This document shows positions 9,880 through 22,399 of a DNA stretch of 32,000 nucleotides, one piece after another (within the stretch, counting starts at the first letter, position 1; each line of letters starts with the position of its first letter). Source of the DNA: Nostoc sp. (GTDB lineage: Bacteria > Cyanobacteriota > Cyanobacteriia > Cyanobacteriales > Nostocaceae); the NCBI RefSeq assembly GCF_036916735.1, contig NZ_JBALFV010000125.1, forward strand, positions 16,022 through 48,021. The letters are read 5' to 3'. The translations under genes and the position numbers were made by a program. The notes beneath the pieces are model-generated. The model was not told where the DNA came from. It did no database searches and saw nothing but the letters and a program-made list of their open reading frames with translations.

Positions 9880-11853
9880 TTATACACTTTCCCGCAATTT
9901 ATCTAACACGCTTCTATCTTCTAATGTCGAAGTATCCCCAGATACCTCTTGCCCTGCGGCTAGATTCCGCAGCAAGCGCCGCATAATCTTACCTGATCGC
10001 GTTTTGGGCAAAGCGTCTGTAAAGCGGATTTCTCCCGGACGCGCGATCGCACCGATTTCTTTGACAACGTGCAGCTTGAGTTCTTTACTCAGTTCCTCAT
10101 TTGCCTGATAAGTACCTTCTAAAGTCACAAAAGCAACTACTTCTTCACCCTTAAGTTCATCGGGTTTACCTACTACCGCCGCTTCTGCAACTGCTGGATG
10201 CGAAACTAAAGCTGATTCTACTTCCATTGTACCAAGTCGGTGTCCTGATACATTAAGTACATCATCAACACGACCCATTACCCAGAAATAGCCGTCTTCA
10301 TCTTGTCTTGCACCATCACCAGCAAAGTAAATATAGTTACCATCTTTAGGAGGAATGTGTTCCCAGTAAGTGCGGCGGAAGCGTTCTGGATCGGCGTAGA
10401 CTGTCCGCATCATTCCTGGCCACGGATGACGCACTGCTAGATAACCGCCTTCTTTATTGGGTACAGTGTTTCCTTCTAAATCCACGACATCTGCAATAAT
10501 TCCAGGGAAGGGAAGAGTTGCTGAACCGGGTTTAGTGGGAATTGCCCCTGGTAGCGGTGTAATCATGATACCGCCGGTTTCCGTTTGCCACCAGGTATCC
10601 ACAATTGGACAGCGATCGCCACCAATTACTTTGTGATACCATATCCAAGCTTCCGGGTTAATCGGTTCGCCAACGGTTCCCAACAAACGCAACGAAGATA
10701 GATTTCGCGTGTTGGGATGTTGTTCGCCCATCTTAATAAATGCCCGAATTGCCGTAGGTGCAGTATAAAAAATATTAACACCGTATTTTTCAATCACATC
10801 CCATGTACAACCAGGATTAGAAGCGCGGGGCGCACCTTCATACATCACACTGGTTGCACCGTTGGAAAGGGGGCCGTAGACAATGTAGCTGTGTCCCGTA
10901 ATCCAACCTACATCTGCGGTACACCAATATACATCTGTGTCTTGCAGGTCGAATATCCACTTGGTGGTCATGTGGGTATACAAATTATAACCAGCAGTTG
11001 TATGCACTACGCCCTTCGGTTTGCCCGTGCTGCCAGAAGTGTAGAGAACAAACAGCATATCTTCGCTGTCCATTGGTTCGGCGGGACAATCTGCTGATAC
11101 TCCTTTTTGCAAATCATGCCACCAATGATCGCGTCCGCCTGACTGCATATAAGTTTCTTGTCCAGTGCGCTTGACAACTAGGACATTTTCTACACTGGGA
11201 ACAGCACCATCAGCTAAAGCTTTGTCTACCTGTTCCTTGAGAGGAACGATCGCATCTTTGCGCCAACCACCATCAGCCGTGATTACCAGTTTAGCTTGAG
11301 CATCAATTAAGCGATCGCGCAAAGCTTCGGCACTAAAACCACCAAATACCACACTGTGGGGTGCGCCAATTCTGGCACAGGCTAACATAGCGATCGCAGC
11401 TTCCGGAATCATCGGCATATAAATACCAACGCGATCGCCTTTTTGTACACCCAGTTGCTTCAATACATTGGCAAACTGACAAACTTCTCGGTGCAGTTGG
11501 GAATATGTCAGGGTACGGGAATCACCTGGTTCTCCTTCCCAAATCAAAGCTGCTTTATTTTTACGCCAGGTAGTGAGATGTCTGTCAAGGCAGTTGTAAG
11601 AAATATTAATCTTACCACCAACGAACCATTTAGCAAAAGGCGGTTGCCAGTCTAATACTGTATCCCATTTTTGGAACCATTCTAATTCTGTTGTCGCCAA
11701 ATCTGCCCAAAATTGCTGCGGATCGGCTTTGGCTTTGTCGTAGATACGCTGATAGTCATCTAAGCTTTGGATATGGGCGTTCTGCGAGAATTCTGAGCTA
11801 GGATGAAACAGCCGCTTCTCTTGTAGGATTGATTCTATAGTTGGTTGAGACAT
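9880..11853 (-). CDS. acs: Acetyl-coenzyme A synthetase (AMP-forming)
   Basis: 657 aa. Canonical Acs motifs are present: [54 protein letters not shown] and [12 protein letters not shown]. Confidence 0.97.
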
Positions 11854-12750: not shown

Positions 12751-13479
12751 ATGTCTGATCCTGCTACTTTAGAAATCATCTCTGATGGTATTTCAGAAGA
12801 CGAAGTTATTTTTCCTCCTGGCGATATACTGAGTGACGAACCACCTTTGGAAAGTGACCTGCACCGTGACCAAATCGATTTGCTGATTCGCATCCTCAAA
12901 TTATGGTGGCGAGATAGGCAAGATTTTTATGCTTCTGGCAATTTGACGATTTACTACAGTTTTAACCAGAAAAAATCAGAATATTTCCGCGGCCCAGACT
13001 TTCTTGTAGTTTTGGGAACCCAGAAAAAAGACCCTAAAAGTTGGGTAGTTTGGCAAGAAGACGGCAAATATCCTAACCTGATTGTGGAAATTTTGTCAAG
13101 TTCAACGACAGCAGTTGATAAAGGTTTAAAAAAACAAGTTTACCAAGATACCTTCCGTACACCAGATTATTTCTGGTTTGATCCTGTAACAATGGAACTT
13201 CAGGGATTTCATTTAGTTGATGGGAAGTATCAAGAAATTCAATCAACCACTGATGGACGTTTGTGGAGTCAACAGTTAGAACTTTATTTGGGAGTTTATG
13301 AAGGTAAATTAAGATTCTTCACTACTGAAAATCAATTAATACTATCATCAGAGGAATTGGTTGAACAAGAACGTTTACGTGCCGAACAGGCAGAAGAACG
13401 CGCCGAACGAGCAGAGCAAGAAATTGCTCGACTGCGGGAGGCTTTACGTTTACAGGGCATCGACCTAGAGAATATTTGA
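12751..13479 (+). CDS. Uma2 family endonuclease (DUF820) with C-terminal coiled-coil tail
   Basis: 242 aa. ESDLHRDQIDLL..., GPDFLVVLG, YPNLIVEILSSSTTAVDKGLKKQVYQD..TPDYFWFDP are the characteristic Uma2 (PF05685) motifs. The C-terminus EQERLRAEQAEERAERAEQEIARLREAL is typical of cyanobacterial members. Confidence 0.85.
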   Translation: MSDPATLEIISDGISEDEVIFPPGDILSDEPPLESDLHRDQIDLLIRILKLWWRDRQDFYASGNLTIYYSFNQKKSEYFRGPDFLVVLGTQKKDPKSWVVWQEDGKYPNLIVEILSSSTTAVDKGLKKQVYQDTFRTPDYFWFDPVTMELQGFHLVDGKYQEIQSTTDGRLWSQQLELYLGVYEGKLRFFTTENQLILSSEELVEQERLRAEQAEERAERAEQEIARLREALRLQGIDLENI

Positions 13480-14876: not shown

Positions 14877-15128
14877 TTAATAATCTTTGAGATGTGCAAT
14901 CTTTATCACTGTTAGTAGTAAGGGTTGCTCCTGAATCTGGTAAATAATGCGGTATTTACCCAAACGAACCTTATACAAGCGTTCGGTGTCCTTCAATAAG
15001 TGAGCGGCTTCTGGACGTGGATTTAATGCTAGTTCCTCTAACTTTTGTGCTAATTGTTGCTGCATTACTGAGTCTAATTCTGTAAGTTTTTGAACAGATG
15101 AAGGTGTCAATGCTACTTGGTAGCTCAT
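14877..15128 (-). CDS. Type II toxin-antitoxin system RelE/ParE family toxin
   Basis: 83 aa. ...LYKVRLGKYRIIYQIQEQPLLLTVIKIAHLKDY is the characteristic C-terminal core of PF05016-type toxins. Its start overlaps the upstream antitoxin stop by 4 nt (ATGA). Confidence 0.85.
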   Translation of the reverse strand: MSYQVALTPSSVQKLTELDSVMQQQLAQKLEELALNPRPEAAHLLKDTERLYKVRLGKYRIIYQIQEQPLLLTVIKIAHLKDY

Positions 15129-15394
15129 ATCCCTAACTCCCTTTTAATTTCTTCAAAGGGTGTTGTCCCCAGCCCTGCAATTTCCTCTAATACTATATAA
15201 GCATCTCTTACATCAGCCTCATCTAACCTTGCTTCAATCAGCTCATGCATCTGCTCTGTTGAGGTAATTTCAGTTCCTGGCTCTTCTCTAAGTTTGTCCG
15301 TTAATGCATGAAAAGCTTCTTGATCGTCTCGATGTTCCAACACATAAGCTCTTAACTCTTGTCTGGTCATTGCTTGAAAATTTGCCTTAGTCAT
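15125..15394 (-). CDS. Putative cognate antitoxin (two-part: N-terminal MT.QELRAYVLEHRDDQEAF module plus C-terminal acidic toxin-binding-like tail)
   Basis: 89 aa. Position immediately upstream of, and translationally coupled to, the RelE/ParE toxin. The acidic C-terminal segment DEADVRDAYIVLEEIAG...FEEIKRELGI resembles antitoxin partners of cyanobacterial RelE/ParE toxins. Confidence 0.65.
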   Translation of the reverse strand: MTKANFQAMTRQELRAYVLEHRDDQEAFHALTDKLREEPGTEITSTEQMHELIEARLDEADVRDAYIVLEEIAGLGTTPFEEIKRELGI

Positions 15395-16026: not shown

Positions 16027-16135
16027 GGTACACCCGACTTTCACCAGGGAAACTGGTTAGCCTCTATCTCTCTTCCATGTAAACATCTGTTATTGTATGC
16101 ATCAGTTAGGATGTTGCCAGATAAGGTAGGATATT

Positions 16136-16552
16136 TTGGAAGCAATTACAGCTAGTGCGATCGCAACCCTCGTTTTTAACAAAGCATTTGAGACAACTAT
16201 CGAGAAATTCACTGAAGCAGCCCTGGTTAAAATTGCTGAGTTGCGAAAGAAGATTTGGGAGAAGTTAAAAGGAAATTCTCAAGCCGCAACTGCCTTCGTT
16301 GAGGCTGACAAAGGCTCGAAACCAGATGTAGACAAGGTTGCTGCTTACTTGCAGAGAATTTTACGTGACGAACCGGAGTTTGCTAAAGAAGTACAAACAC
16401 TGGCTCGTGAAATTCAGGCTGGTAAGATAGTAGACAATAGCAATATGACTCAAATCAACCATGACAATGCCAAAGGATGGCAAACTAAAGTTGAGGGTGG
16501 AACAGTTTATCAAGGCGAGATTAACATTCATCATGCACCCCCCAATTCTTGA
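16136..16552 (+). CDS. Small helical effector-like protein (Bell-domain-like) with C-terminal amyloid-signalling-type motif shared with the downstream NLR
   Basis: 138 aa with a TTG start preceded by AAGGTAGGA. The N-terminus is hydrophobic/helical (MEAITASAIATLVFNKAFETTIEKF...). C-terminal residues 107-132, INHDNAKGWQTKVEGGTVYQGEINIH, repeat at the N-terminus of the next ORF. The stop lies 11 nt before the next start. Confidence 0.7.
   Translation: MEAITASAIATLVFNKAFETTIEKFTEAALVKIAELRKKIWEKLKGNSQAATAFVEADKGSKPDVDKVAAYLQRILRDEPEFAKEVQTLAREIQAGKIVDNSNMTQINHDNAKGWQTKVEGGTVYQGEINIHHAPPNS
16454..16531 (+). other. C-terminal copy of the shared ~26-aa motif (candidate bacterial amyloid signalling sequence)
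   Basis: INHDNAKGWQTKVEGGTVYQGEINIH versus SNQDNAKGWQTQVEGGTAYVGDISIY in the next gene: 18 of 26 positions identical by my count. Confidence 0.7.
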
Positions 16553-16563
16553 ATTGAGCCATC

Positions 16564-19500
16564 ATGAACCAAAGCAACCAGGATAATGCCAAGGGATGGC
16601 AAACTCAGGTTGAGGGTGGAACAGCTTATGTCGGCGATATTAGTATCTACAATTCCCCTACTAGGCAGTTACACTCATCTCCTCCAAATAATATTCCTTA
16701 TCGGGGTGTCGCCAACTTTGTCGGGCGGGATGAGAAACTTGCCCAAGTGCATGAAAAGTTGCTGCAAAACGACAACGCAGCAATTTTGGCTGTGACTGGT
16801 ATGGGGGGAATCGGTAAAACTGAACTGGCGACACAATACGCACAGCGCTACAAAGTCAATTATCCTGGTGGGCTTTGCTGGTTAGATGCCAGAAAACTAG
16901 ATTTAGCAGCAGAGATTGTCGAGTTTGCTAAGTTTTACATGAAACTGGAAGTACCGCAAACCTTATTGACTTCCCAGGAACAAGCAAAATGGTGCTGGCA
17001 TAATTGGCAACCACAAACAGGACTAGTCTTGGTAGTATTGGACAATGTTGACGATGTAACTAACTGGAAAAATTCTCACCAAGTACTGCCAACAGATAAC
17101 CGCTTTCGTATATTGATGACAACTCGGTTGCGAAATCTCGGTTCAACAGTTCAACAGATAACTTTGGATGAACTCTCATCAAACGATGCTTTGAAATTGT
17201 TGACAGCTTTGTTGGGTGAGAATGATCGGCGAGTGCAACGGGAACCACAAACGGCAGCAAATTTATGTAAATGGCTGGGATATCTGCCTTTAGGTTTGCA
17301 ATTAGTCGGCGCGTATTTGGCAGAAGATCCAAATTTGTCTTTGACAGAGATTTTACAGCGATTGCCAGCCCAGCAACAATCTCAATTGGAAGCCGTATTT
17401 GAATTAAGCTGGCAACAACTCGATTATATGACAAAGTATGTCGGTGAGTTGTTGAGTTTATTTGCCTCAGATATGATTCCTTGGCAAATAGTTGAATCTG
17501 TCAGTCAGCAGCTAAATTGGGCAAAGGCAGATGTTGACGAGGCGAGAAAGCAACTTTATCAGCGTCATTTAATTCAAAGCGTAGCAGAAAGAGAAAGTTG
17601 CTATAAAATTCATCCTTTAATTAGGGAGTTTTTGCAGGGGAAATTAGTAGGGTTAAACACAGCCGATGACCTCAAAAAAGCCTTTGCCGCAGCATTAGTA
17701 GAAATTGCTCAGAAAATACCTGAATCTCTCACCCTTGAGGATATCAAATCAGTGCAGCTGGCAATTCCACACTTGACTGAGGTGGCACAAAATCTGATTG
17801 ATGTTGTGGAGGATGAAAATTTATTTTGGGTTTTCACTGGCTTGGGCAGATTTTATCAAGGACAGGGTTTGTATACCCTAGCAGCACCTTGGTATGAGCA
17901 AGGATTATCAACGGTGCAAACCCGTTTGGGAGAGGAACATCGCCATGTTGCCACCAGCCTGAACAACCTGGCATTACTCTACAATTCTCAAGGACGCTAC
18001 GACCAAGCCGAACCCCTGTTTCTGCAAGCTTTAGAACTGAGAAAACGCCTGCTGGGAGATGCACATCCCGATGTTGCCGCCAGCCTGAACAACCTGGCAT
18101 TACTCTACAATTCTCAAGGACGCTACGACCAAGCCGAACCCCTGTTTCTGCAAGCTTTAGAACTGAGTAAACGCCTGCTGGGAGAGGAACATCGCCATGT
18201 TGCCACCAGCCTGAACAACCTGGCATCACTCTACAATTCTCAAGGACGCTACGACCAAGCCGAACCCCTGTTTCTGCAAGCTTTAGAACTGAGAAAACGC
18301 CTGCTGGGAGATGCACATCCCGATGTTGCCGCCAGCCTGAACAACCTGGCAAATCTCTACGATTTTCAAGGACGCTACGACCAAGCCGAACCCCTGTTTC
18401 TGCAAGCTTTAGAACTTTATAAACGCCTGCTGGGAGAAGCACATCCCGATGTTGCCACCAGCCTGAACTTGCTGGCAAATCTCTACAATTCTCAAGGACG
18501 CTACGACCAAGCCGAACCCCTGTTGCTGCAAGCTTTAGAACTTTATAAACGCCTGCTGGGAGATGCACATCCCGATGTTGCCGCCAGCCTGAACAACCTG
18601 GCAAATCTCTACGATTTTCAAGGACGCTACGACCAAGCCGAACCCCTGTTTCTGCAAGCTTTAGAACTTTATAAACGCCTGCTGGGAGAAGCACATCCCG
18701 ATGTTGCCACCAGCCTGAACTTGCTGGCAAATCTCTACAATTCTCAAGGACGCTACGACCAAGCCGAACCCCTGTTGCTGCAAGCTTTAGAACTGAGTAA
18801 ACGCCTGCTGGGAGAAGAAAATCCCTCAGTTGCCACCAGCCTGAACAACCTGGCATCACTCTACTATTCTCAAGGACGCTACGACCAAGCCGAACCCCTG
18901 TTTCTGCAAGCTTTAGAACTTTATAAACGCCTGCTGGGAGAAGCACATCCCCATGTTGCCACCAGCCTGAGCAACCTGGCAAATCTCTACAATTCTCAAG
19001 GACGCTACGACCAAGCCGAACCCCTGTATCTGCAAGCTTTAGAACTTTATAAACGCCTGCTGGGAGAAGAACATCCCGATTTTGCCATCAGCCTGAACAA
19101 CCTGGCATTACTCTACAATTCTCAAGGACGCTACGACCAAGCCGAACCCCTGTATCTGCAAGCTTTAGAACTGAGTAAACGCCTGCTGGGAGAAGCACAT
19201 CCCCATGTTGCCAGCAGCCTGAACAACTTGGCATTACTCTACGATTCTCAAGGACGCTACGACCAAGCCGAACCCCTGTTACTGCAAGCTTTAGAACTGA
19301 GAAAACGCCTGCTGGGAGAAGCACATCCCGATTTTGCCACTAGCCTGAACAACCTGGCATTACTCTACAATTCTCAAGGACGCTACGACCAAGCTGAACC
19401 CCTGTATCTGCAAGCTTTAGAACTTAATAAACGCCTGCTGGGAGATGCACATCCCGATTTTGCCACCAGCCTGAACAACCTGGCATTACTCTACAAATCT

Positions 19501-19827
19501 CAAGGACGCTACGACCAAGCCGAACCCCTGTATCTGCAAGCTTTAGAACTGAGTAAACGCCTGCTGGGAGAAGCACATCCCTCTGTTGCCACCAGCCTGA
19601 ACAACCTGGCATTACTCTACGATTCTCAAGGACGCTACGACCAAGCCGAACCCCTGTTTCTGCAAGCTTTAGAAATTCGTCAGCAGGTGTTTGGGGTGAA
19701 TCATCCCAATACGGTTACTGTTCGGCAAAATCTGGAAAATCTTCAAGCTCAAAAGAGTGCTAACCGTAAAGTTAAAAATAATACTAATAATTCCTTGTGG
19801 AAGAAGTTTTTAGGGTTATTTGAGTGA
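16564..19827 (+). CDS. NLR-like STAND NTPase: N-terminal ~30-aa signalling motif + NB-ARC domain + 14 near-identical 42-aa TPR repeats
   Basis: 1087 aa. NB-ARC motifs: P-loop GMGGIGKT (aa 79-86, nt 16798-16821), Walker B LVLVVLDNVDD (aa 154-164), RILMTTR (aa 182-188), GLPL-type LPLGLQLVG (aa 241-249). The C-terminal half is TPR_10/TPR_12-type (kinesin-light-chain-like) repeats. No enzymatic N-terminal effector domain; only the short motif is present. Confidence 0.9.
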   Translation: MNQSNQDNAKGWQTQVEGGTAYVGDISIYNSPTRQLHSSPPNNIPYRGVANFVGRDEKLAQVHEKLLQNDNAAILAVTGMGGIGKTELATQYAQRYKVNYPGGLCWLDARKLDLAAEIVEFAKFYMKLEVPQTLLTSQEQAKWCWHNWQPQTGLVLVVLDNVDDVTNWKNSHQVLPTDNRFRILMTTRLRNLGSTVQQITLDELSSNDALKLLTALLGENDRRVQREPQTAANLCKWLGYLPLGLQLVGAYLAEDPNLSLTEILQRLPAQQQSQLEAVFELSWQQLDYMTKYVGELLSLFASDMIPWQIVESVSQQLNWAKADVDEARKQLYQRHLIQSVAERESCYKIHPLIREFLQGKLVGLNTADDLKKAFAAALVEIAQKIPESLTLEDIKSVQLAIPHLTEVAQNLIDVVEDENLFWVFTGLGRFYQGQGLYTLAAPWYEQGLSTVQTRLGEEHRHVATSLNNLALLYNSQGRYDQAEPLFLQALELRKRLLGDAHPDVAASLNNLALLYNSQGRYDQAEPLFLQALELSKRLLGEEHRHVATSLNNLASLYNSQGRYDQAEPLFLQALELRKRLLGDAHPDVAASLNNLANLYDFQGRYDQAEPLFLQALELYKRLLGEAHPDVATSLNLLANLYNSQGRYDQAEPLLLQALELYKRLLGDAHPDVAASLNNLANLYDFQGRYDQAEPLFLQALELYKRLLGEAHPDVATSLNLLANLYNSQGRYDQAEPLLLQALELSKRLLGEENPSVATSLNNLASLYYSQGRYDQAEPLFLQALELYKRLLGEAHPHVATSLSNLANLYNSQGRYDQAEPLYLQALELYKRLLGEEHPDFAISLNNLALLYNSQGRYDQAEPLYLQALELSKRLLGEAHPHVASSLNNLALLYDSQGRYDQAEPLLLQALELRKRLLGEAHPDFATSLNNLALLYNSQGRYDQAEPLYLQALELNKRLLGDAHPDFATSLNNLALLYKSQGRYDQAEPLYLQALELSKRLLGEAHPSVATSLNNLALLYDSQGRYDQAEPLFLQALEIRQQVFGVNHPNTVTVRQNLENLQAQKSANRKVKNNTNNSLWKKFLGLFE
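16573..16650 (+). other. N-terminal copy of the shared ~26-aa motif on the NLR
   Basis: SNQDNAKGWQTQVEGGTAYVGDISIY (aa 4-29), matching the C-terminus of the upstream ORF. Confidence 0.7.
17926..19689 (+). repeat. Fourteen tandem 126-bp (42-aa) coding repeats, near-identical at nucleotide level
   Basis: Consensus LGEAHPDVATSLNNLALLYNSQGRYDQAEPLFLQALELxKRL. The first unit starts at L455 (nt 17926) and the 14th ends at nt 19689. Includes a perfect ~248-bp tandem duplicate (18295-18542 = 18547-18794). Confidence 0.95.
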
Positions 19828-20841: not shown

Positions 20842-21135
20842 TTAATCAGAGAATAGCGCCTCTAAATCGCGGTAGTCACTTACTATCCGCACAACTTCAA
20901 TCCCCTCTGCAATTTGGCGATAAAATATCAAATAATCATCAACTGGAAAGCTTCGTAACGCAGGTAAAAGTTCATCCCGTCTGCGTCCCATACTAGGAAA
21001 CTGTGCTAAAGTATCCAACTTTTGAGTGATGATTGTGAATAATCTATCTGCAATATCTGGATTTCCAGCAAATAGGTAATCGTTAATTTATTGTAAGTCT
21101 TCGGTAGCTTGAAGCGATAGAAAATATAAACTCAT
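20842..21135 (-). pseudogene. parE: ParE family toxin gene inactivated by a premature TAA at codon 16
   Basis: Minus-strand translation: MSLYFLSLQATEDLQ*INDYLFAGNPDIADRLFTIITQKLDTLAQFPSMGRRRDELLPALRSFPVDDYLIFYRQIAEGIEVVRIVSDYRDLEALFSD*. The stop is at 21088-21090. The ATG overlaps the parD stop (TAATG). 294 nt = 98 codons in a single frame. Confidence 0.8.
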
Positions 21136-21404
21136 TATTGTGCCTGAGTCTTTCTCAAAGCTTGGTTCTTTTGACGCAGTTGCTCGATTACTTCTTTACC
21201 GTCGAGTCGTTCTTGGCGATCAAGTTGCTCAACCCCAATCATAATTTCTCTTTGCAGTTCCTCAAACCGACCCTTGTAAATACGTTCCCGTTCCTCCAAC
21301 AGCCTAACACCTGCAAGAATCACTTCCTCTGATGAGGTGTACTTACCGCTTACAACTTGACTTTGAATGAACTGCTCAAGCTCGGTAGTTAAGGAAATAT
21401 TCAT
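21135..21404 (-). CDS. parD: ParD-type (ribbon-helix-helix) type II antitoxin
   Basis: 89 aa. MNISLTTELEQFIQSQVVSGKYTSSEEVILAGVRLLEERE is the characteristic ParD/CC2985-family N-terminus. Located immediately upstream of the parE remnant. Confidence 0.85.
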   Translation of the reverse strand: MNISLTTELEQFIQSQVVSGKYTSSEEVILAGVRLLEERERIYKGRFEELQREIMIGVEQLDRQERLDGKEVIEQLRQKNQALRKTQAQ

Positions 21405-21676: not shown

Positions 21677-22399
21677 ATGCTAGACCGAATTTTTGATTAC
21701 CTCGACTTTCATTTCAGCATTGAAGCCCCTATAGTTCTGCTGATCCTGGTGCTTTTAGAGGCGCTCTTATCTGCCGACAATGCGATCGCTCTGGCTGCGA
21801 TCGCTAGGGGGCTGGAAGACGAAGAACTTGAGCGTAAAGGACTCAACTTTGGTTTAGTCGTTGCTTATGTGCTGCGAATCACCCTGATTCTCACTGCCAC
21901 TTGGGTGCAACAATTCTGGCAATTTGAATTATTGGGTGCTGCTTATCTGCTGTGGTTGGTATTCCAACACTTTACCTCTCAACAAAGTGAAGACGATCAC
22001 TATCACGGACCGCGTTTTAATTCATTGTTGCAAGCGATACCTGTGATTGCCTTTACAGATTTGGCATTTTCTTTAGATAGCGTGACAACAGCGATCGCAG
22101 TTTCTCAAGAAAAATGGCTAGTGCTGACGGGTGCAACAATTGGTATTATTACGCTGCGATTCATGGCAGGATTGTTTATTCGTTGGCTAGACGAATATGA
22201 AAACCTAGAAGACGCAGGCTATGTAACTGTAGCGTTGGTAGGCTTGCGCTTGTTATTGAAAGTGGTAAACGATAGTTTAGTTCCACCAGAATGGATCATG
22301 ATTGCTGCCATCTTCCTAATTTTAGGCTGGGGATTTTCCAAGCGTGTTGGTACTGAATTACCCCAAGTAGAACCAGAGAAGAGCGAAGTCTCGAAGTAA
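21677..22399 (+). CDS. terC: TerC family integral membrane protein
   Basis: 240 aa. EALLSADNAIALAAIARGL and the second half-repeat DLAFSLDSVTTAIAVS are the duplicated TerC (PF03741) signature segments. Multi-pass hydrophobic profile. Confidence 0.85.
   Translation: MLDRIFDYLDFHFSIEAPIVLLILVLLEALLSADNAIALAAIARGLEDEELERKGLNFGLVVAYVLRITLILTATWVQQFWQFELLGAAYLLWLVFQHFTSQQSEDDHYHGPRFNSLLQAIPVIAFTDLAFSLDSVTTAIAVSQEKWLVLTGATIGIITLRFMAGLFIRWLDEYENLEDAGYVTVALVGLRLLLKVVNDSLVPPEWIMIAAIFLILGWGFSKRVGTELPQVEPEKSEVSK

What the first reader, a model, noticed from the sequence alone, without database searches (positions are those of the whole stretch)
16454..16650. Duplicated ~26-aa motif straddling the gene boundary (18/26 identical)
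Effector aa 107-132 read INHDNAKGWQTKVEGGTVYQGEINIH. NLR aa 4-29 read SNQDNAKGWQTQVEGGTAYVGDISIY. Identical positions form N.DNAKGWQT.VEGGT.Y.G.I.I. The pattern of N/Q/G-rich turns (DNAKG, EGG) between short alternating hydrophobic/polar stretches (WQTKV, TVYQGEINI) is what a beta-arch amyloid signalling motif would look like. Conservation at the protein level exceeds what two otherwise unrelated proteins would show. The differences fall mainly at alternating positions. No other region of the two proteins is similar.
Basis: seen in the sequence. Interest (0 to 1): 0.75.

Follow-up and report, generated by a model that had tools for sequence, protein, structure and literature searches.

The report
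Amyloid-signalling motif pair (BASS9) in Nostoc
A small helical "executioner" protein and the adjacent NLR-type sensor ATPase of a Nostoc cyanobacterium share a short motif; it is a new example of the published BASS9 bacterial amyloid-signalling family, through which the sensor is thought to switch on the executioner.

Summary
The motif is BASS9 (sub-motif nlr_20) of Dyrka et al. 2020, listed there for Calothrix, Microcystis, Pseudanabaena and Leptolyngbya. The 138-aa protein belongs to their Bell family (61% identical to the Calothrix PCC 6303 member). The partner is an NB-ARC protein with about 14 TPR repeats, 11 nt downstream.

The motif is rare (77 clusters among 1.84 billion representatives) and position-specific. 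It sits at C-termini of small effectors and N-termini of P-loop NTPases. In 56 of 68 evaluable loci the next collinear gene carries the partner copy. Four syntenic Nostoc loci keep both copies. The Bell-side copy is far more constrained (pN/pS 0.05) than the NLR-side copy (0.55).

Amyloid templating itself is inferred; BASS9 was not tested in the papers I read.

Verdict: a new member of a known kind, modest interest.

Side finding outside the window: 17 sister loci carry one motif copy, a conserved UGA-plus-hairpin element and an in-frame NLR with no usable start codon. This suggests programmed stop-codon readthrough.

The parts
16123..16131 (+). Shine-Dalgarno-like AAGGTAGGA, 4 nt upstream of the TTG start of the effector gene
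   Evidence: The sequence and the TTG start are conserved in all five orthologous Nostoc loci.
16136..16552 (+). Effector gene: 138-aa Bell-family protein with a C-terminal BASS9 motif. The exact protein is annotated as hypothetical V7L20_32080 in a Nostoc sp. MAG.
   Evidence: ORF. 100% match to P0001, plus 164 cyanobacterial homologues. 61% identical (E 4e-48) to P0005, whose residues 104-126 equal the Bell-side segment of AFZ02241.1 in Table S2 of Dyrka 2020. No Pfam, NCBIfam or PADLOC family.
16136..16435 (+). Bell-like helical domain (aa 1-100). The N-terminus reads M-E-A-I-T-A-S-A-I-A-T-L: a hydrophobic helix with an acidic residue at position 2.
   Evidence: AlphaFold2 on a 46-sequence alignment gives helices 6-13, 15-18, 27-44, 48-58, 62-78 and 80-95, with pLDDT 70-88. 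The N-terminal signature fits the description of Bell/HeLo/MLKL N-termini in Dyrka 2020.
16445..16540 (+). Effector-side BASS9 motif (aa 104-135, MTQINHDNAKGWQTKVEGGTVYQGEINIHHAP).
   Evidence: BLASTP. pLDDT below 50, hence disordered in the monomer model. Nearly invariant across 56 loci. pN/pS 0.05 among five orthologues.
16553..16563 (+). 11-nt spacer between the effector stop (TGA 16550-16552) and the NLR start (ATG 16564). The NLR is in a different reading frame (frame offset 2 relative to the effector).
   Evidence: The median spacer in 56 BASS9 pairs is 12 nt. The junction has no predicted structure (-0.7 kcal/mol). Model R1 finds no recoding element in the window.
16564..19827 (+). NLR-type sensor gene: 1087 aa, made of an N-terminal BASS9 motif, an NB-ARC domain and a TPR array
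   Evidence: Pfam NB-ARC at aa 56-267 (E 3e-20) and TPR_12/TPR_10 in 14-15 units (E 1e-255 and 1e-211).
16564..16659 (+). NLR-side BASS9 motif (aa 1-32, MNQSNQDNAKGWQTQVEGGTAYVGDISIYNSP).
   Evidence: BLASTP. Retained in orthologues L001-L004 but faster evolving, with pN/pS 0.55.
16729..17364 (+). NB-ARC nucleotide-binding oligomerisation domain (aa 56-267)
   Evidence: Pfam PF00931, 72.8 bits.
17927..19674 (+). Highly internally conserved TPR-coding repeat array (126-bp unit, 13.9 copies, 92% matches): the presumed ligand-sensing domain
   Evidence: Tandem Repeats Finder. Orthologous NLRs are only 615 (from the ATG homologous to the window's start; 620 from an upstream TTG), 624 and 710 aa, against 1087 aa here.

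Best explanation
This is a two-gene Bell/BASS9-NLR amyloid-signalling module of the kind described by Dyrka et al. 2020.

Proposed working:
1. The two genes are co-transcribed. The 11-nt spacer suggests they are also translationally coupled.
2. The NB-ARC/TPR protein rests as a monomer.
3. When its variable TPR array binds a cue (a phage or other non-self signal, identity unknown), the NB-ARC domain oligomerises.
4. Oligomerisation brings the N-terminal BASS9 segments together, so that they adopt a cross-beta (beta-arch) fold.
5. That fold templates the disordered C-terminal BASS9 tail of the 138-aa Bell protein.
6. Conversion of the tail releases the hydrophobic N-terminal helix of the Bell bundle, which damages the membrane and kills or arrests the cell (abortive infection or programmed cell death).

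Shown here: gene architecture, domain content, family membership, rarity and positional specificity of the motif, retention of both copies, and selection on them.

Inferred from relatives (BASS1, BASS3, BASS11, fungal HET-S/NWD2): amyloid formation, templating, membrane attack and a defence role.
For: Architecture: a 138-aa protein with a helical domain and a disordered tail, followed by an NB-ARC protein with 14-15 TPR units. The genes are collinear and 11 nt apart.

Motif identity: 21/32, E 1e-12.

Family assignment:
- The same motif is listed as bass_09/nlr_20 for Calothrix PCC 6303, Microcystis, Pseudanabaena and Leptolyngbya in Table S2 of Dyrka 2020.
- The Calothrix Bell protein is a 61%-identical homologue.

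Specificity:
- Only 77 of 1.84e9 representative clusters match the motif.
- They are Bell-like small proteins with the motif within about 10 residues of the C-terminus, P-loop proteins with it in the first 60 or so residues, or fusions in which it lies between an effector domain (Bell, PNP_UDP) and NB-ARC, NACHT, TIR/SEFIR or CHAT.

Pairing:
- In 56 of 68 evaluable loci, the first 90 aa of the next collinear gene match the Bell tail above 99.9% of shuffles.
- 43 of 47 downstream ORFs that are long enough have a P-loop.
- The median spacer is 12 nt.

Conservation:
- Four syntenic Nostoc loci keep both copies.
- pN/pS is 0.05 for the Bell-side motif, 0.30 for the Bell helices and 0.55 for the NLR-side motif.
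- Cognate pairs are slightly more alike than non-cognate pairs (0.478 vs 0.457; 6 of 10000 permutations reach the observed value). The VYQG variant appears on both sides in the sister Nostoc loci only.

Modularity: the same Bell domain carries other C-terminal motifs in other genomes.

Mechanistic precedent: BASS1 and BASS3 form prions and fibrils, and the NLR-side motif converts the Bell-side one. The E. coli Bab/Agp (BASS11) pair is an abortive-infection system that works by amyloid signalling.
Against: - No experiment on BASS9 was found in the papers read; only BASS1, BASS3 and BASS11 were tested.
- ArchCandy and the published pHMMs could not be run.
- The Bell model has no significant structural match in the PDB (best E 2.1) and no sequence match to a solved Bell-like structure. 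The pore-forming or executioner role is therefore inferred from family membership and the N-terminal signature.
- The pair is not recognised by PADLOC.
- The trigger is unknown.
- The NLR-side copy is only loosely constrained (pN/pS 0.55).
- In the window the NLR-side copy has drifted from its partner at two positions where its sister loci match (AYVG vs VYQG).
Confidence: 0.8

Rival explanations
1. The shared segment is a non-amyloid docking motif. The effector tail and the NLR N-terminus form a stoichiometric heterodimer, or the tail binds the NLR through beta-strand addition. Signalling would then go through ordinary protein-protein binding, not prion-like templating.
For: The amyloid state of BASS9 has not been shown. 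The monomer model gives no structure for the tail. The NLR-side copy tolerates many substitutions, which a simple binding interface might also allow.
Against: Homotypic identity of two short N/Q/G-rich segments, one strictly C-terminal and one strictly N-terminal, is the hallmark of the fungal and bacterial amyloid pairs. In those pairs, fibrils and cross-seeding were demonstrated. Identical residues alternate with variable ones in the second half of the motif, as expected for stacked beta-strands. The same motif sits between very different domains: PNP_UDP, TIR/SEFIR, CHAT, NACHT and NB-ARC. That argues for a self-contained assembly module rather than a tailored interface.
Confidence: 0.12
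2. The similarity is a neutral by-product of a recent local duplication or gene conversion of about 100 bp across the gene boundary, with no function of its own.
For: The two copies are direct repeats 119 bp apart. At identical residues they use the same codon in 15 of 19 cases (0.79), against a family median of about 0.53. This points to recent DNA exchange in this Nostoc clade.
Against: The pairing recurs in 56 of 68 loci across Nostocales, Microcystis, Pseudanabaena, Leptolyngbya and Acaryochloris, often with low codon identity. The Bell-side copy is under very strong purifying selection (pN/pS 0.05). The motif is restricted to the termini of immune-type proteins. Gene conversion would be a way of keeping the copies compatible, not an alternative to function.
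Confidence: 0.03
3. The motif is a shared sorting, processing or degradation signal (for example a membrane-targeting or protease-recognition tag) that both proteins carry independently.
For: It is short, terminal and conserved. The effector has no annotated function.
Against: One copy is C-terminal and the other N-terminal, which is unusual for a targeting signal. In fusion proteins the motif is internal, between two cytoplasmic domains. It has no signal-peptide-like hydrophobic stretch. The cognate-pair covariation is not expected for a generic tag.
Confidence: 0.03

Closest known systems
BASS9 (sub-motif nlr_20) Bell/NLR gene pairs of cyanobacteria, e.g. Calothrix sp. PCC 6303 AFZ02241.1/AFZ02242.1 and Microcystis aeruginosa PCC 7806 CAO90856.1/CAO90857.1 (Dyrka et al. 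2020, Table S2)
   Same: Same motif (MTQ.N.DNAKGWQTKVEGGTAYI). Same Bell-family effector of about 138 aa (61% identity to the Calothrix protein). Same NB-ARC/TPR partner, same collinear orientation, and a short spacer: 11 nt here, 15-31 nt in the listed pairs.
   Different: This pair is more self-similar than most: 19/27 in the common register, against about 13/27 typically. It is also more similar at codon level. The NLR-side motif sits at the very N-terminus, as in 17 of 56 pairs; in Microcystis-type partners it follows a helical extension of about 50 aa. The Bell side carries the clade-specific variant VYQG in place of AYIG.
Fungal HET-S / NWD2 (HRAM motif) and HELLP/PNT1 (PP motif) amyloid signalling pairs
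   Same: Same logic: an adjacent NLR and a helical cell-death effector share a motif of about 21-25 aa, at the N-terminus of the NLR and the C-terminus of the effector. The effector N-terminus is a hydrophobic helix. The NLR repeats are highly internally conserved.
   Different: No sequence homology of motif or effector domain. HET-S carries two pseudo-repeats of its motif, whereas the window's effector carries one copy. Different kingdom.
E. coli Bab/Agp abortive-infection system (BASS11; Ibarlosa et al. 2024 preprint)
   Same: A small Bell-related helical effector with a C-terminal amyloid motif, and an adjacent large sensor with the same motif at its N-terminus. That system was shown experimentally to act by amyloid signalling leading to cell death.
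   Different: The sensor there is TPR-GreA/B-C-PIN, not an NB-ARC NLR. The motif family differs (BASS11). That system lies in a prophage defence hotspot; the window's pair lies in a chromosomal variable island between the acetyl-CoA synthetase and TerC genes.
Mammalian RHIM (RIPK1/RIPK3) necrosome amyloid and bacterial BASS3
   Same: A short functional amyloid motif mediates hetero-oligomeric signalling towards regulated cell death.
   Different: BASS9 lacks the G-phi-Q-phi-G RHIM/PP/BASS3 core signature. It is a different motif family.

Membership tests
Bell/BASS-NLR amyloid signalling gene pair (Dyrka et al. 2020) | Effector is a protein of about 120-140 aa with an N-terminal all-helical Bell domain, whose first helix is hydrophobic with an acidic residue at position 2-3 | tested here: met
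   138 aa. N-terminus MEAITASAIATL, with E at position 2. The AF2 model is helical over residues 6-95, pLDDT 70-88. 61% identical (E 4e-48) to P0005, whose residues 104-126 equal those of AFZ02241.1 in the published Bell set. There is no Pfam model for Bell, so this rests on homology to a listed member.
Bell/BASS-NLR amyloid signalling gene pair (Dyrka et al. 2020) | The same motif of about 20-25 aa lies at the C-terminus of the effector and the N-terminus of the NLR | tested here: met
   Effector 104-135 against NLR 1-32: 21/32 identical, E 1e-12, with no other similarity.
Bell/BASS-NLR amyloid signalling gene pair (Dyrka et al. 2020) | Partner has NLR architecture (NB-ARC or NACHT plus TPR or WD repeats) | tested here: met
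   PF00931 NB-ARC at aa 56-267. TPR_12 and TPR_10 in 14-15 units.
Bell/BASS-NLR amyloid signalling gene pair (Dyrka et al. 2020) | Genes are adjacent, collinear, and separated by a very short spacer or an overlap | tested here: met
   Same strand, 11-nt spacer. The published set is 91% collinear, and 57% have a spacer of 10 bp or less.
BASS9 motif family (nlr_20) | Match to the BASS9 signature | tested here: met
   The published pHMM was not available. As a proxy, the Bell-side segment MTQINHDNAKGWQTKVEGGTVYQ is 19/23 identical to the listed BASS9 instance MTQNNSDNAKGWQTKVEGGTAYI. The Calothrix BASS9 pair was recovered as a homologous locus.
BASS9 motif family (nlr_20) | Restricted to cyanobacteria | tested here: met
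   All named homologues are cyanobacterial: Nostoc, Calothrix, Anabaena, Microcystis, Leptolyngbya, Scytonema, Acaryochloris.
Functional amyloid / prion-forming signalling motif | Forms cross-beta fibrils, and the NLR-side copy templates the effector-side copy | not testable with these tools
   No experiment on BASS9 was found. BASS1, BASS3 and BASS11 were shown to do so.
Functional amyloid / prion-forming signalling motif | Beta-arch propensity (ArchCandy) and N/Q/G/V/I-rich, P/L-poor composition | tested here: inconclusive
   ArchCandy was not available. The composition fits: the motif core contains no P or L and is rich in N, Q, G, V and I. Identical and variable residues alternate over positions 17-26. 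The AF2 monomer model leaves residues 103-138 disordered, as expected for the soluble state but not diagnostic.
Pore-forming / membrane-targeting cell-death domains (HeLo, MLKL, RPW8/CC) | Structural similarity of the effector's helical bundle | tested here: not met
   Foldseek against the PDB gave a best E of 2.1. The NRG1.1 CC-R domain appears only at E 3.5 with TM 0.19-0.24. The profile search against PDB sequences gave nothing relevant. Resemblance to these domains is therefore not demonstrated here.
Known anti-phage defence systems (PADLOC-DB v2) | Match of the proteins to a defence-system model | tested here: not met
   No hit for the effector. The NLR gives only generic TPR hits.

The most novel reading that the evidence does not exclude
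The duplicated motif in the window may be one of two interchangeable solutions to the same problem.

The alternative arrangement, seen at the syntenic ACS-TerC locus of Kalymmatonema and Scytonema and in 15 other cyanobacterial loci (including plasmid gamma of the model strain Nostoc/Anabaena PCC 7120), looks like this:
- There is only ONE motif copy, on the effector.
- The effector gene ends in UGA (UAG once), inside a conserved element of about 45 nt with a small covarying hairpin.
- The NLR ORF follows in the same frame and has no usable start codon.

The reading is that programmed stop-codon readthrough makes a minor effector-motif-NLR fusion that acts as the sensor, while normal termination makes the free effector. 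If so, the NLR-side copy in the window is the hard-wired equivalent of a recoding event. Amyloid-signalling modules would then switch between a two-copy form and a readthrough form.

For the window itself, the less dramatic novel element is concerted evolution (gene conversion) of the two copies.
Probability: 0.55. Interest if true: 0.8.

Novelty: new member of a known kind. Interest (0 to 1): 0.33.

Why it matters
For the window itself, the result is mainly annotation. Two "hypothetical / TPR" genes of a Nostoc MAG can be named as a BASS9 Bell-NLR amyloid-signalling (probable cell-suicide or defence) module.

The quantitative data add a little to what is published:
- The effector-side motif is about ten times more constrained than the NLR-side one.
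- The motif is extremely rare and position-specific across 1.84 billion protein clusters.
- In this clade the two copies show signs of DNA-level homogenisation.

The side observation could matter more. If the in-frame UGA-hairpin element in sister loci is a real readthrough signal, it would be a rare case of programmed recoding in bacterial chromosomal and plasmid genes. It would also explain how NLRs without their own motif are coupled to effectors. It is directly testable in Nostoc PCC 7120.

Tried and rejected
- Pfam, NCBIfam and PADLOC give no family for the effector. The weak ApoLp-III, GpsB and DUF hits are far below their cut-offs and were ignored.
- Foldseek of the AF2 model against the PDB and a profile search of PDB sequences gave nothing significant. 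The "Circular tendon repeat protein" hit at E 2e-6 has no stretch that passes on its own and is a designed repeat protein, so I treat it as compositional.
- A 35-aa and then a 41-aa motif query to the search for homologous proteins failed: too short, then no shared words. That cost one search. The exhaustive representative search replaced it.
- The genome-contig scan with the single protein returned only 4 close loci.
- A null distribution built from reverse-strand ORFs of the same loci was contaminated by real motif-bearing genes. It was replaced by shuffles.
- Selenocysteine was considered for the in-frame UGA and rejected as the first choice. One locus uses UAG, no Rfam SECIS or other family matches, and there is no redox context.
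- Reinitiation at a canonical start was considered and rejected for most loci, because the first ATG/GTG/TTG often lies at or after conserved NB-ARC residues or inside the P-loop.
- The modest excess of same-frame gene pairs among ordinary BASS9 pairs (27/8/21) is not phylogenetically independent, and I draw nothing from it.
- An RNA-level role for the repeat in the window was considered. The copies are direct repeats, not inverted, and the junction is unstructured.
Full report
**1. The observation.**
The window contains two collinear ORFs on the + strand. One spans 16136..16552 (138 aa, TTG start). The other spans 16564..19827 (1087 aa) and begins 11 nt after the first one's stop.

BLASTP extends the match to effector 104-135 against NLR 1-32: 21/32 identical, 27/32 positive, E = 1e-12. 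It finds nothing else between the proteins.

The local alignment score is 122. The maximum was 58 in 1000 shuffles of the effector and 51 in 5000 tail/head shuffles. No third copy exists in any frame of the window. In the second half of the motif, the differences fall strictly on alternate positions (18, 20, 22, 24, 26).

**2. What the two genes are.**
The large protein has an NB-ARC domain (aa 56-267, E 3e-20) followed by 14-15 TPR_12/TPR_10 units. This is a bacterial NLR/STAND architecture.

The small protein matches no Pfam, NCBIfam or PADLOC model. It is identical to a hypothetical protein of a Nostoc sp. MAG and has 164 homologues, all cyanobacterial where a source names them.

An AlphaFold2 model built on 46 homologues gives a helical domain over residues 6-95 (pLDDT 70-88). 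The tail from residue 103 is disordered (pLDDT below 50) and contains the motif. The N-terminus, MEAITASAIATL, is a hydrophobic helix with an acidic residue at position 2.

The TTG start and an AAGGTAGGA ribosome-binding site are conserved in five orthologous loci.

**3. Comparison with the literature.**
Dyrka et al. (bioRxiv 10.1101/2020.01.06.895854) described Bell-domain effectors and adjacent NLRs that share "bacterial amyloid signalling sequences" (BASS1-10). Their supplementary Table S2 lists this very motif as bass_09, sub-motif nlr_20. Examples are MTQINQDNAKGWQTKVDGGTAYI / MKQENKDNAKGWQTEANNSNVYN in Calothrix sp. PCC 6303 (AFZ02241.1/AFZ02242.1), with further pairs in Microcystis, Pseudanabaena and Leptolyngbya.

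My homologue P0005 comes from Calothrix PCC 6303 and is 61% identical to the window's effector. Its residues 104-126 carry that exact segment. Its neighbour is the listed NB-ARC/TPR partner. The window's pair is therefore a member of a published family.

In that preprint only BASS1 and BASS3 were tested experimentally. A later preprint showed that the related E. coli Bab/Agp pair (BASS11) is an abortive-infection system acting through amyloid signalling.

**4.

(a) Specificity. I searched a profile of the two window copies against 1.84 billion representative proteins. It found only 77 clusters at E <= 1e-3. They fall into these groups:
- small Bell-like proteins with the motif within about 10 residues of the C-terminus;
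- proteins with the motif in the first 60 or so residues, followed by a P-loop;
- proteins of about 310 aa that end in the motif. The one of these scanned with Pfam (P0133) matched no family, but longer relatives with the motif at the same position begin with a PNP_UDP domain;
- single polypeptides in which the motif lies between an effector domain and an immune-type module. Examples are Bell-BASS9-NB-ARC-TPR, Bell-BASS9-CHAT-TRADD_N-TIR, PNP_UDP-BASS9-SEFIR/TIR and PNP_UDP-BASS9-NACHT.
- two low-scoring multi-stretch matches that look spurious.

The motif is therefore not generic low-complexity sequence.

(b) Pairing. I assembled 76 unique loci encoding a Bell-BASS9 protein. In 68 of them a collinear ORF follows. 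In 56 of those 68, the first 90 residues of that ORF match the Bell tail above 99.9% of shuffles, and at least three of the 12 negatives are visibly weak true matches. Of 47 downstream ORFs readable for at least 220 aa, 43 have a P-loop. The median spacer is 12 nt. The NLR-side motif is either at the very N-terminus (17 pairs, as in the window) or follows a helical extension of about 50 aa (39 pairs).

(c) Orthologues. Four Nostoc genomes carry the syntenic locus, with the same upstream Uma2 gene and unknown genes and the same downstream TerC gene. All four keep both motif copies.

(d) Selection. Pooled over the ten pairwise comparisons of the five orthologues, pN/pS is:

| Region | pN/pS |
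|---|---|
| Bell-side motif | 0.05 |
| Bell helical domain | 0.30 |
| NLR-side motif | 0.55 |
| NLR linker | 0.29 |
| NB-ARC | 0.40 |

The same asymmetry appears family-wide. Bell-side positions are 80-100% conserved. On the NLR side only the Q.N..NAKG[WFY]QT.V.GG.A.IG skeleton persists.

**5. Extra features of this particular pair.**
In the common 27-residue register the window's pair shares 19 positions, whereas a typical BASS9 pair shares about 13. At identical residues the two copies use the same codon in 15 of 19 cases (0.79). This is among the highest values, against a family median of about 0.53.

The sister Nostoc loci carry the clade-specific variant VYQG on both sides, where the family has AYIG. 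Cognate pairs are slightly but significantly more alike than non-cognate ones (0.478 vs 0.457; 6 of 10000 permutations reach this, not corrected for phylogeny). Together these points suggest occasional DNA-level homogenisation (gene conversion) between the copies, which lie 119 bp apart. That is an inference.

The TPR-coding region is a 126-bp repeat in 13.9 copies with 92% matches. Orthologous NLRs are 615-710 aa instead of 1087 aa. This is the repeat-number variation known for highly internally conserved NLR repeats.

**6. Mechanism.**
The best-supported explanation is the published model: ligand-induced NB-ARC oligomerisation nucleates a cross-beta fold of the N-terminal motifs; that fold templates the effector's tail and activates the Bell domain as a cell-death executioner.

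- Shown here: architecture, family membership, motif specificity, retention and selection.
- Inferred from relatives: amyloid formation, templating, membrane attack, and a role in defence or programmed cell death.

The helical domain has no significant structural neighbour in the PDB. Resemblance to HeLo, MLKL or CC domains is therefore not demonstrated by my data.

Rival readings are less well supported, for the reasons given in their entries. They are a non-amyloid docking motif, a neutral duplication remnant, and a shared sorting tag.

**7. Context.**
The pair lies in a variable stretch between an acetyl-CoA synthetase gene (9880-11853) and a TerC gene (21677-22399). That stretch also holds a Uma2 endonuclease-like gene, a ParE-like toxin with a DUF6887 partner, and a ParD-like antitoxin. 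The rest of the window is ordinary chromosomal housekeeping.

**8. Side finding outside the window.**
The first two loci I inspected whose Bell homologues carry other C-terminal motifs (L011 and L012) both showed an unexpected arrangement. The effector ORF ends in TGA. The NLR ORF follows in the same frame and is open from the stop codon. It has no motif copy of its own.

A conserved element begins at the stop: UGA CUR SAG YCG YCC G-(8-nt loop)-CGG RYA AAG UUA AAU CCC CC. A covariance model and a BLAST search raised the count to 17 distinct instances:
- Nostoc PCC 7120 plasmid gamma;
- Kalymmatonema and Scytonema, at the locus syntenic with the window;
- Iphinoe and Brasilonema;
- Nostoc UHCC 0870 and Nostoc C057;
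- Nostocales HT-58-2;
- seven Acaryochloris plasmid sites;
- two metagenomic loci, both with BASS9(-like) Bell tails. One (L019) carries a typical BASS9 tail; the other (L040) carries a variant tail and UAG instead of UGA.

All 17 are in frame. The downstream frame stays open for up to 1481 codons. It is 115 codons or more in 16 of the 17; the 17th runs off the end of the retrieved stretch after 11 codons.

The first canonical start codon often lies at or after conserved NB-ARC residues. In five Acaryochloris sites it is the methionine inside the P-loop. RefSeq annotates ATT, ATC, ATA or CTG starts.

The upstream effector is Bell-like or, in one case, an alpha/beta hydrolase. The motif types vary and include a BASS7-like one. 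The peptide encoded just after the stop is homologous to the linker that follows the NLR-side motif in two-gene pairs.

The 5-bp hairpin starts 8 nt after the stop. It is paired in 98.8% of cells and has one fully compensatory pair (C:G in 9 sequences, U:A in 8) that arises through non-synonymous changes in two codons. Its thermodynamic stability is modest, with z-scores of -0.5 to -2.1.

No Rfam family matches. The element is absent from the window. The two papers I checked on these systems, by term search of the main text (Dyrka et al. 2020; Kaur et al. 2021), do not mention readthrough or in-frame stops, and two full-text searches of the held library turned up no report of it.

The most economical reading is programmed stop-codon readthrough, giving a minor effector-motif-NLR fusion alongside the free effector. 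This is not proven, and it concerns relatives, not the window.

**9. Verdict.**
It is a new member of a known, published kind (BASS9 Bell/NLR amyloid signalling pair). Interest is modest for the window itself. The readthrough-type sister loci deserve separate follow-up.

Noticed in passing
L097:5415-5462 (Nostoc PCC 7120 plasmid gamma), L012:4430-4477, L093:3430-3477, L094:3415, L096:3418, L099:749, L100:3915, L101:3002 and 6010, L102-L105:3002, L106:2155, L107:2994, L019:3400, L040:671: A conserved element of about 45 nt begins at the effector's stop codon (UGA in 16 loci, UAG in one) and has a 5-bp hairpin 8 nt downstream. In all 17 loci the NLR ORF follows in the same frame, lacks its own motif copy, and has no canonical start before conserved residues; in five Acaryochloris sites the first ATG is inside the P-loop. 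This looks like programmed stop-codon readthrough producing an effector-motif-NLR fusion. It has no Rfam match and is not mentioned in the papers checked. It is absent from the window.
   Followed up: partly
window 17927-19674: The TPR-coding region is a 126-bp tandem repeat in 13.9 copies with 92% matches. Orthologous NLRs in sister Nostoc genomes are only 615-710 aa, against 1087 aa here. This is repeat-number variation of highly internally conserved NLR repeats, a feature known from fungal and bacterial NLRs.
   Followed up: partly
window 16445-16540 vs 16564-16659, with L001-L004: The two motif copies are under asymmetric constraint: pN/pS is 0.05 on the effector side and 0.55 on the NLR side. 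Family-wide, the effector side is 80-100% conserved per position, while the NLR side keeps only a skeleton.
   Followed up: yes
window 16445-16659; L001-L004, L051, L052, L056: In this Nostoc clade and one other, the two copies use the same codon at 65-89% of identical residues, against a family median of about 53%. The clade-specific VYQG variant occurs on both sides in the sister loci. Both points suggest gene conversion between the copies. In the window itself the NLR side reads AYVG, so it has since diverged from its partner.
   Followed up: partly
P0145, P0149, P0151, P0153, P0155, P0197, P0158, P0130, P0154, P0195: The BASS9 motif also occurs inside single polypeptides, between an effector-type domain and an immune-type module: PNP_UDP-BASS9-SEFIR/TIR (one of these, P0149, also carries a C-terminal FGE-sulfatase domain), PNP_UDP-BASS9-NACHT, Bell-BASS9-CHAT-TRADD_N-TIR and Bell-BASS9-NB-ARC-TPR. 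It also occurs at the C-terminus of proteins of about 310 aa; the one scanned (P0133) matched no Pfam family.
   Followed up: partly
L010, L015, L022, L024, L030, L047, L072 and others: In 39 of 56 BASS9 pairs the NLR-side motif is preceded by a conserved, probably helical N-terminal extension of about 50 aa (for example MSDLITQLCQL..AEILQ..PQADL). The window has the short form, with the motif at residue 1. The function of the extension is unknown.
   Followed up: no
L082, L088, L090, L091: Some Bell-BASS9 genes are followed, 51 nt downstream, by a 131-aa ORF (VCMDVRISFEGATTEDDSYHLKNL...) that has no motif and no P-loop. These are possible orphan effectors or a different partner type.
   Followed up: no
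window 12751-13479, 14877-15394, 20842-21404; compare L012 and L093: The Bell/NLR pair sits in a variable island between the acetyl-CoA synthetase gene (9880-11853) and the TerC gene (21677-22399). The island also holds a Uma2 endonuclease-like gene, a ParE-like toxin with a DUF6887 partner, and a ParD-like antitoxin. The same ACS...TerC slot in Kalymmatonema and Scytonema holds a readthrough-type Bell/NLR module with a different motif.
   Followed up: partly
56 BASS9 pairs: The downstream NLR gene is in the same reading frame as the effector gene in 27 pairs, against 8 and 21 for the other two frames. In 17 of the 27 there is no stop between the effector's stop codon and the NLR start. The counts are not corrected for relatedness, so their significance is unclear.
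   Followed up: no
L009:1-3469 (minus strand): A second NB-ARC protein (1359 aa; besides NB-ARC only weak or faint Pfam matches, to APAF1_C and to TPR families) is encoded divergently, next to the Bell/NLR pair of Scytonematopsis. Reverse-strand ORFs of several loci contained motif-like N-termini, which contaminated my first null distribution. This hints at clustered or divergent NLR genes.
   Followed up: no
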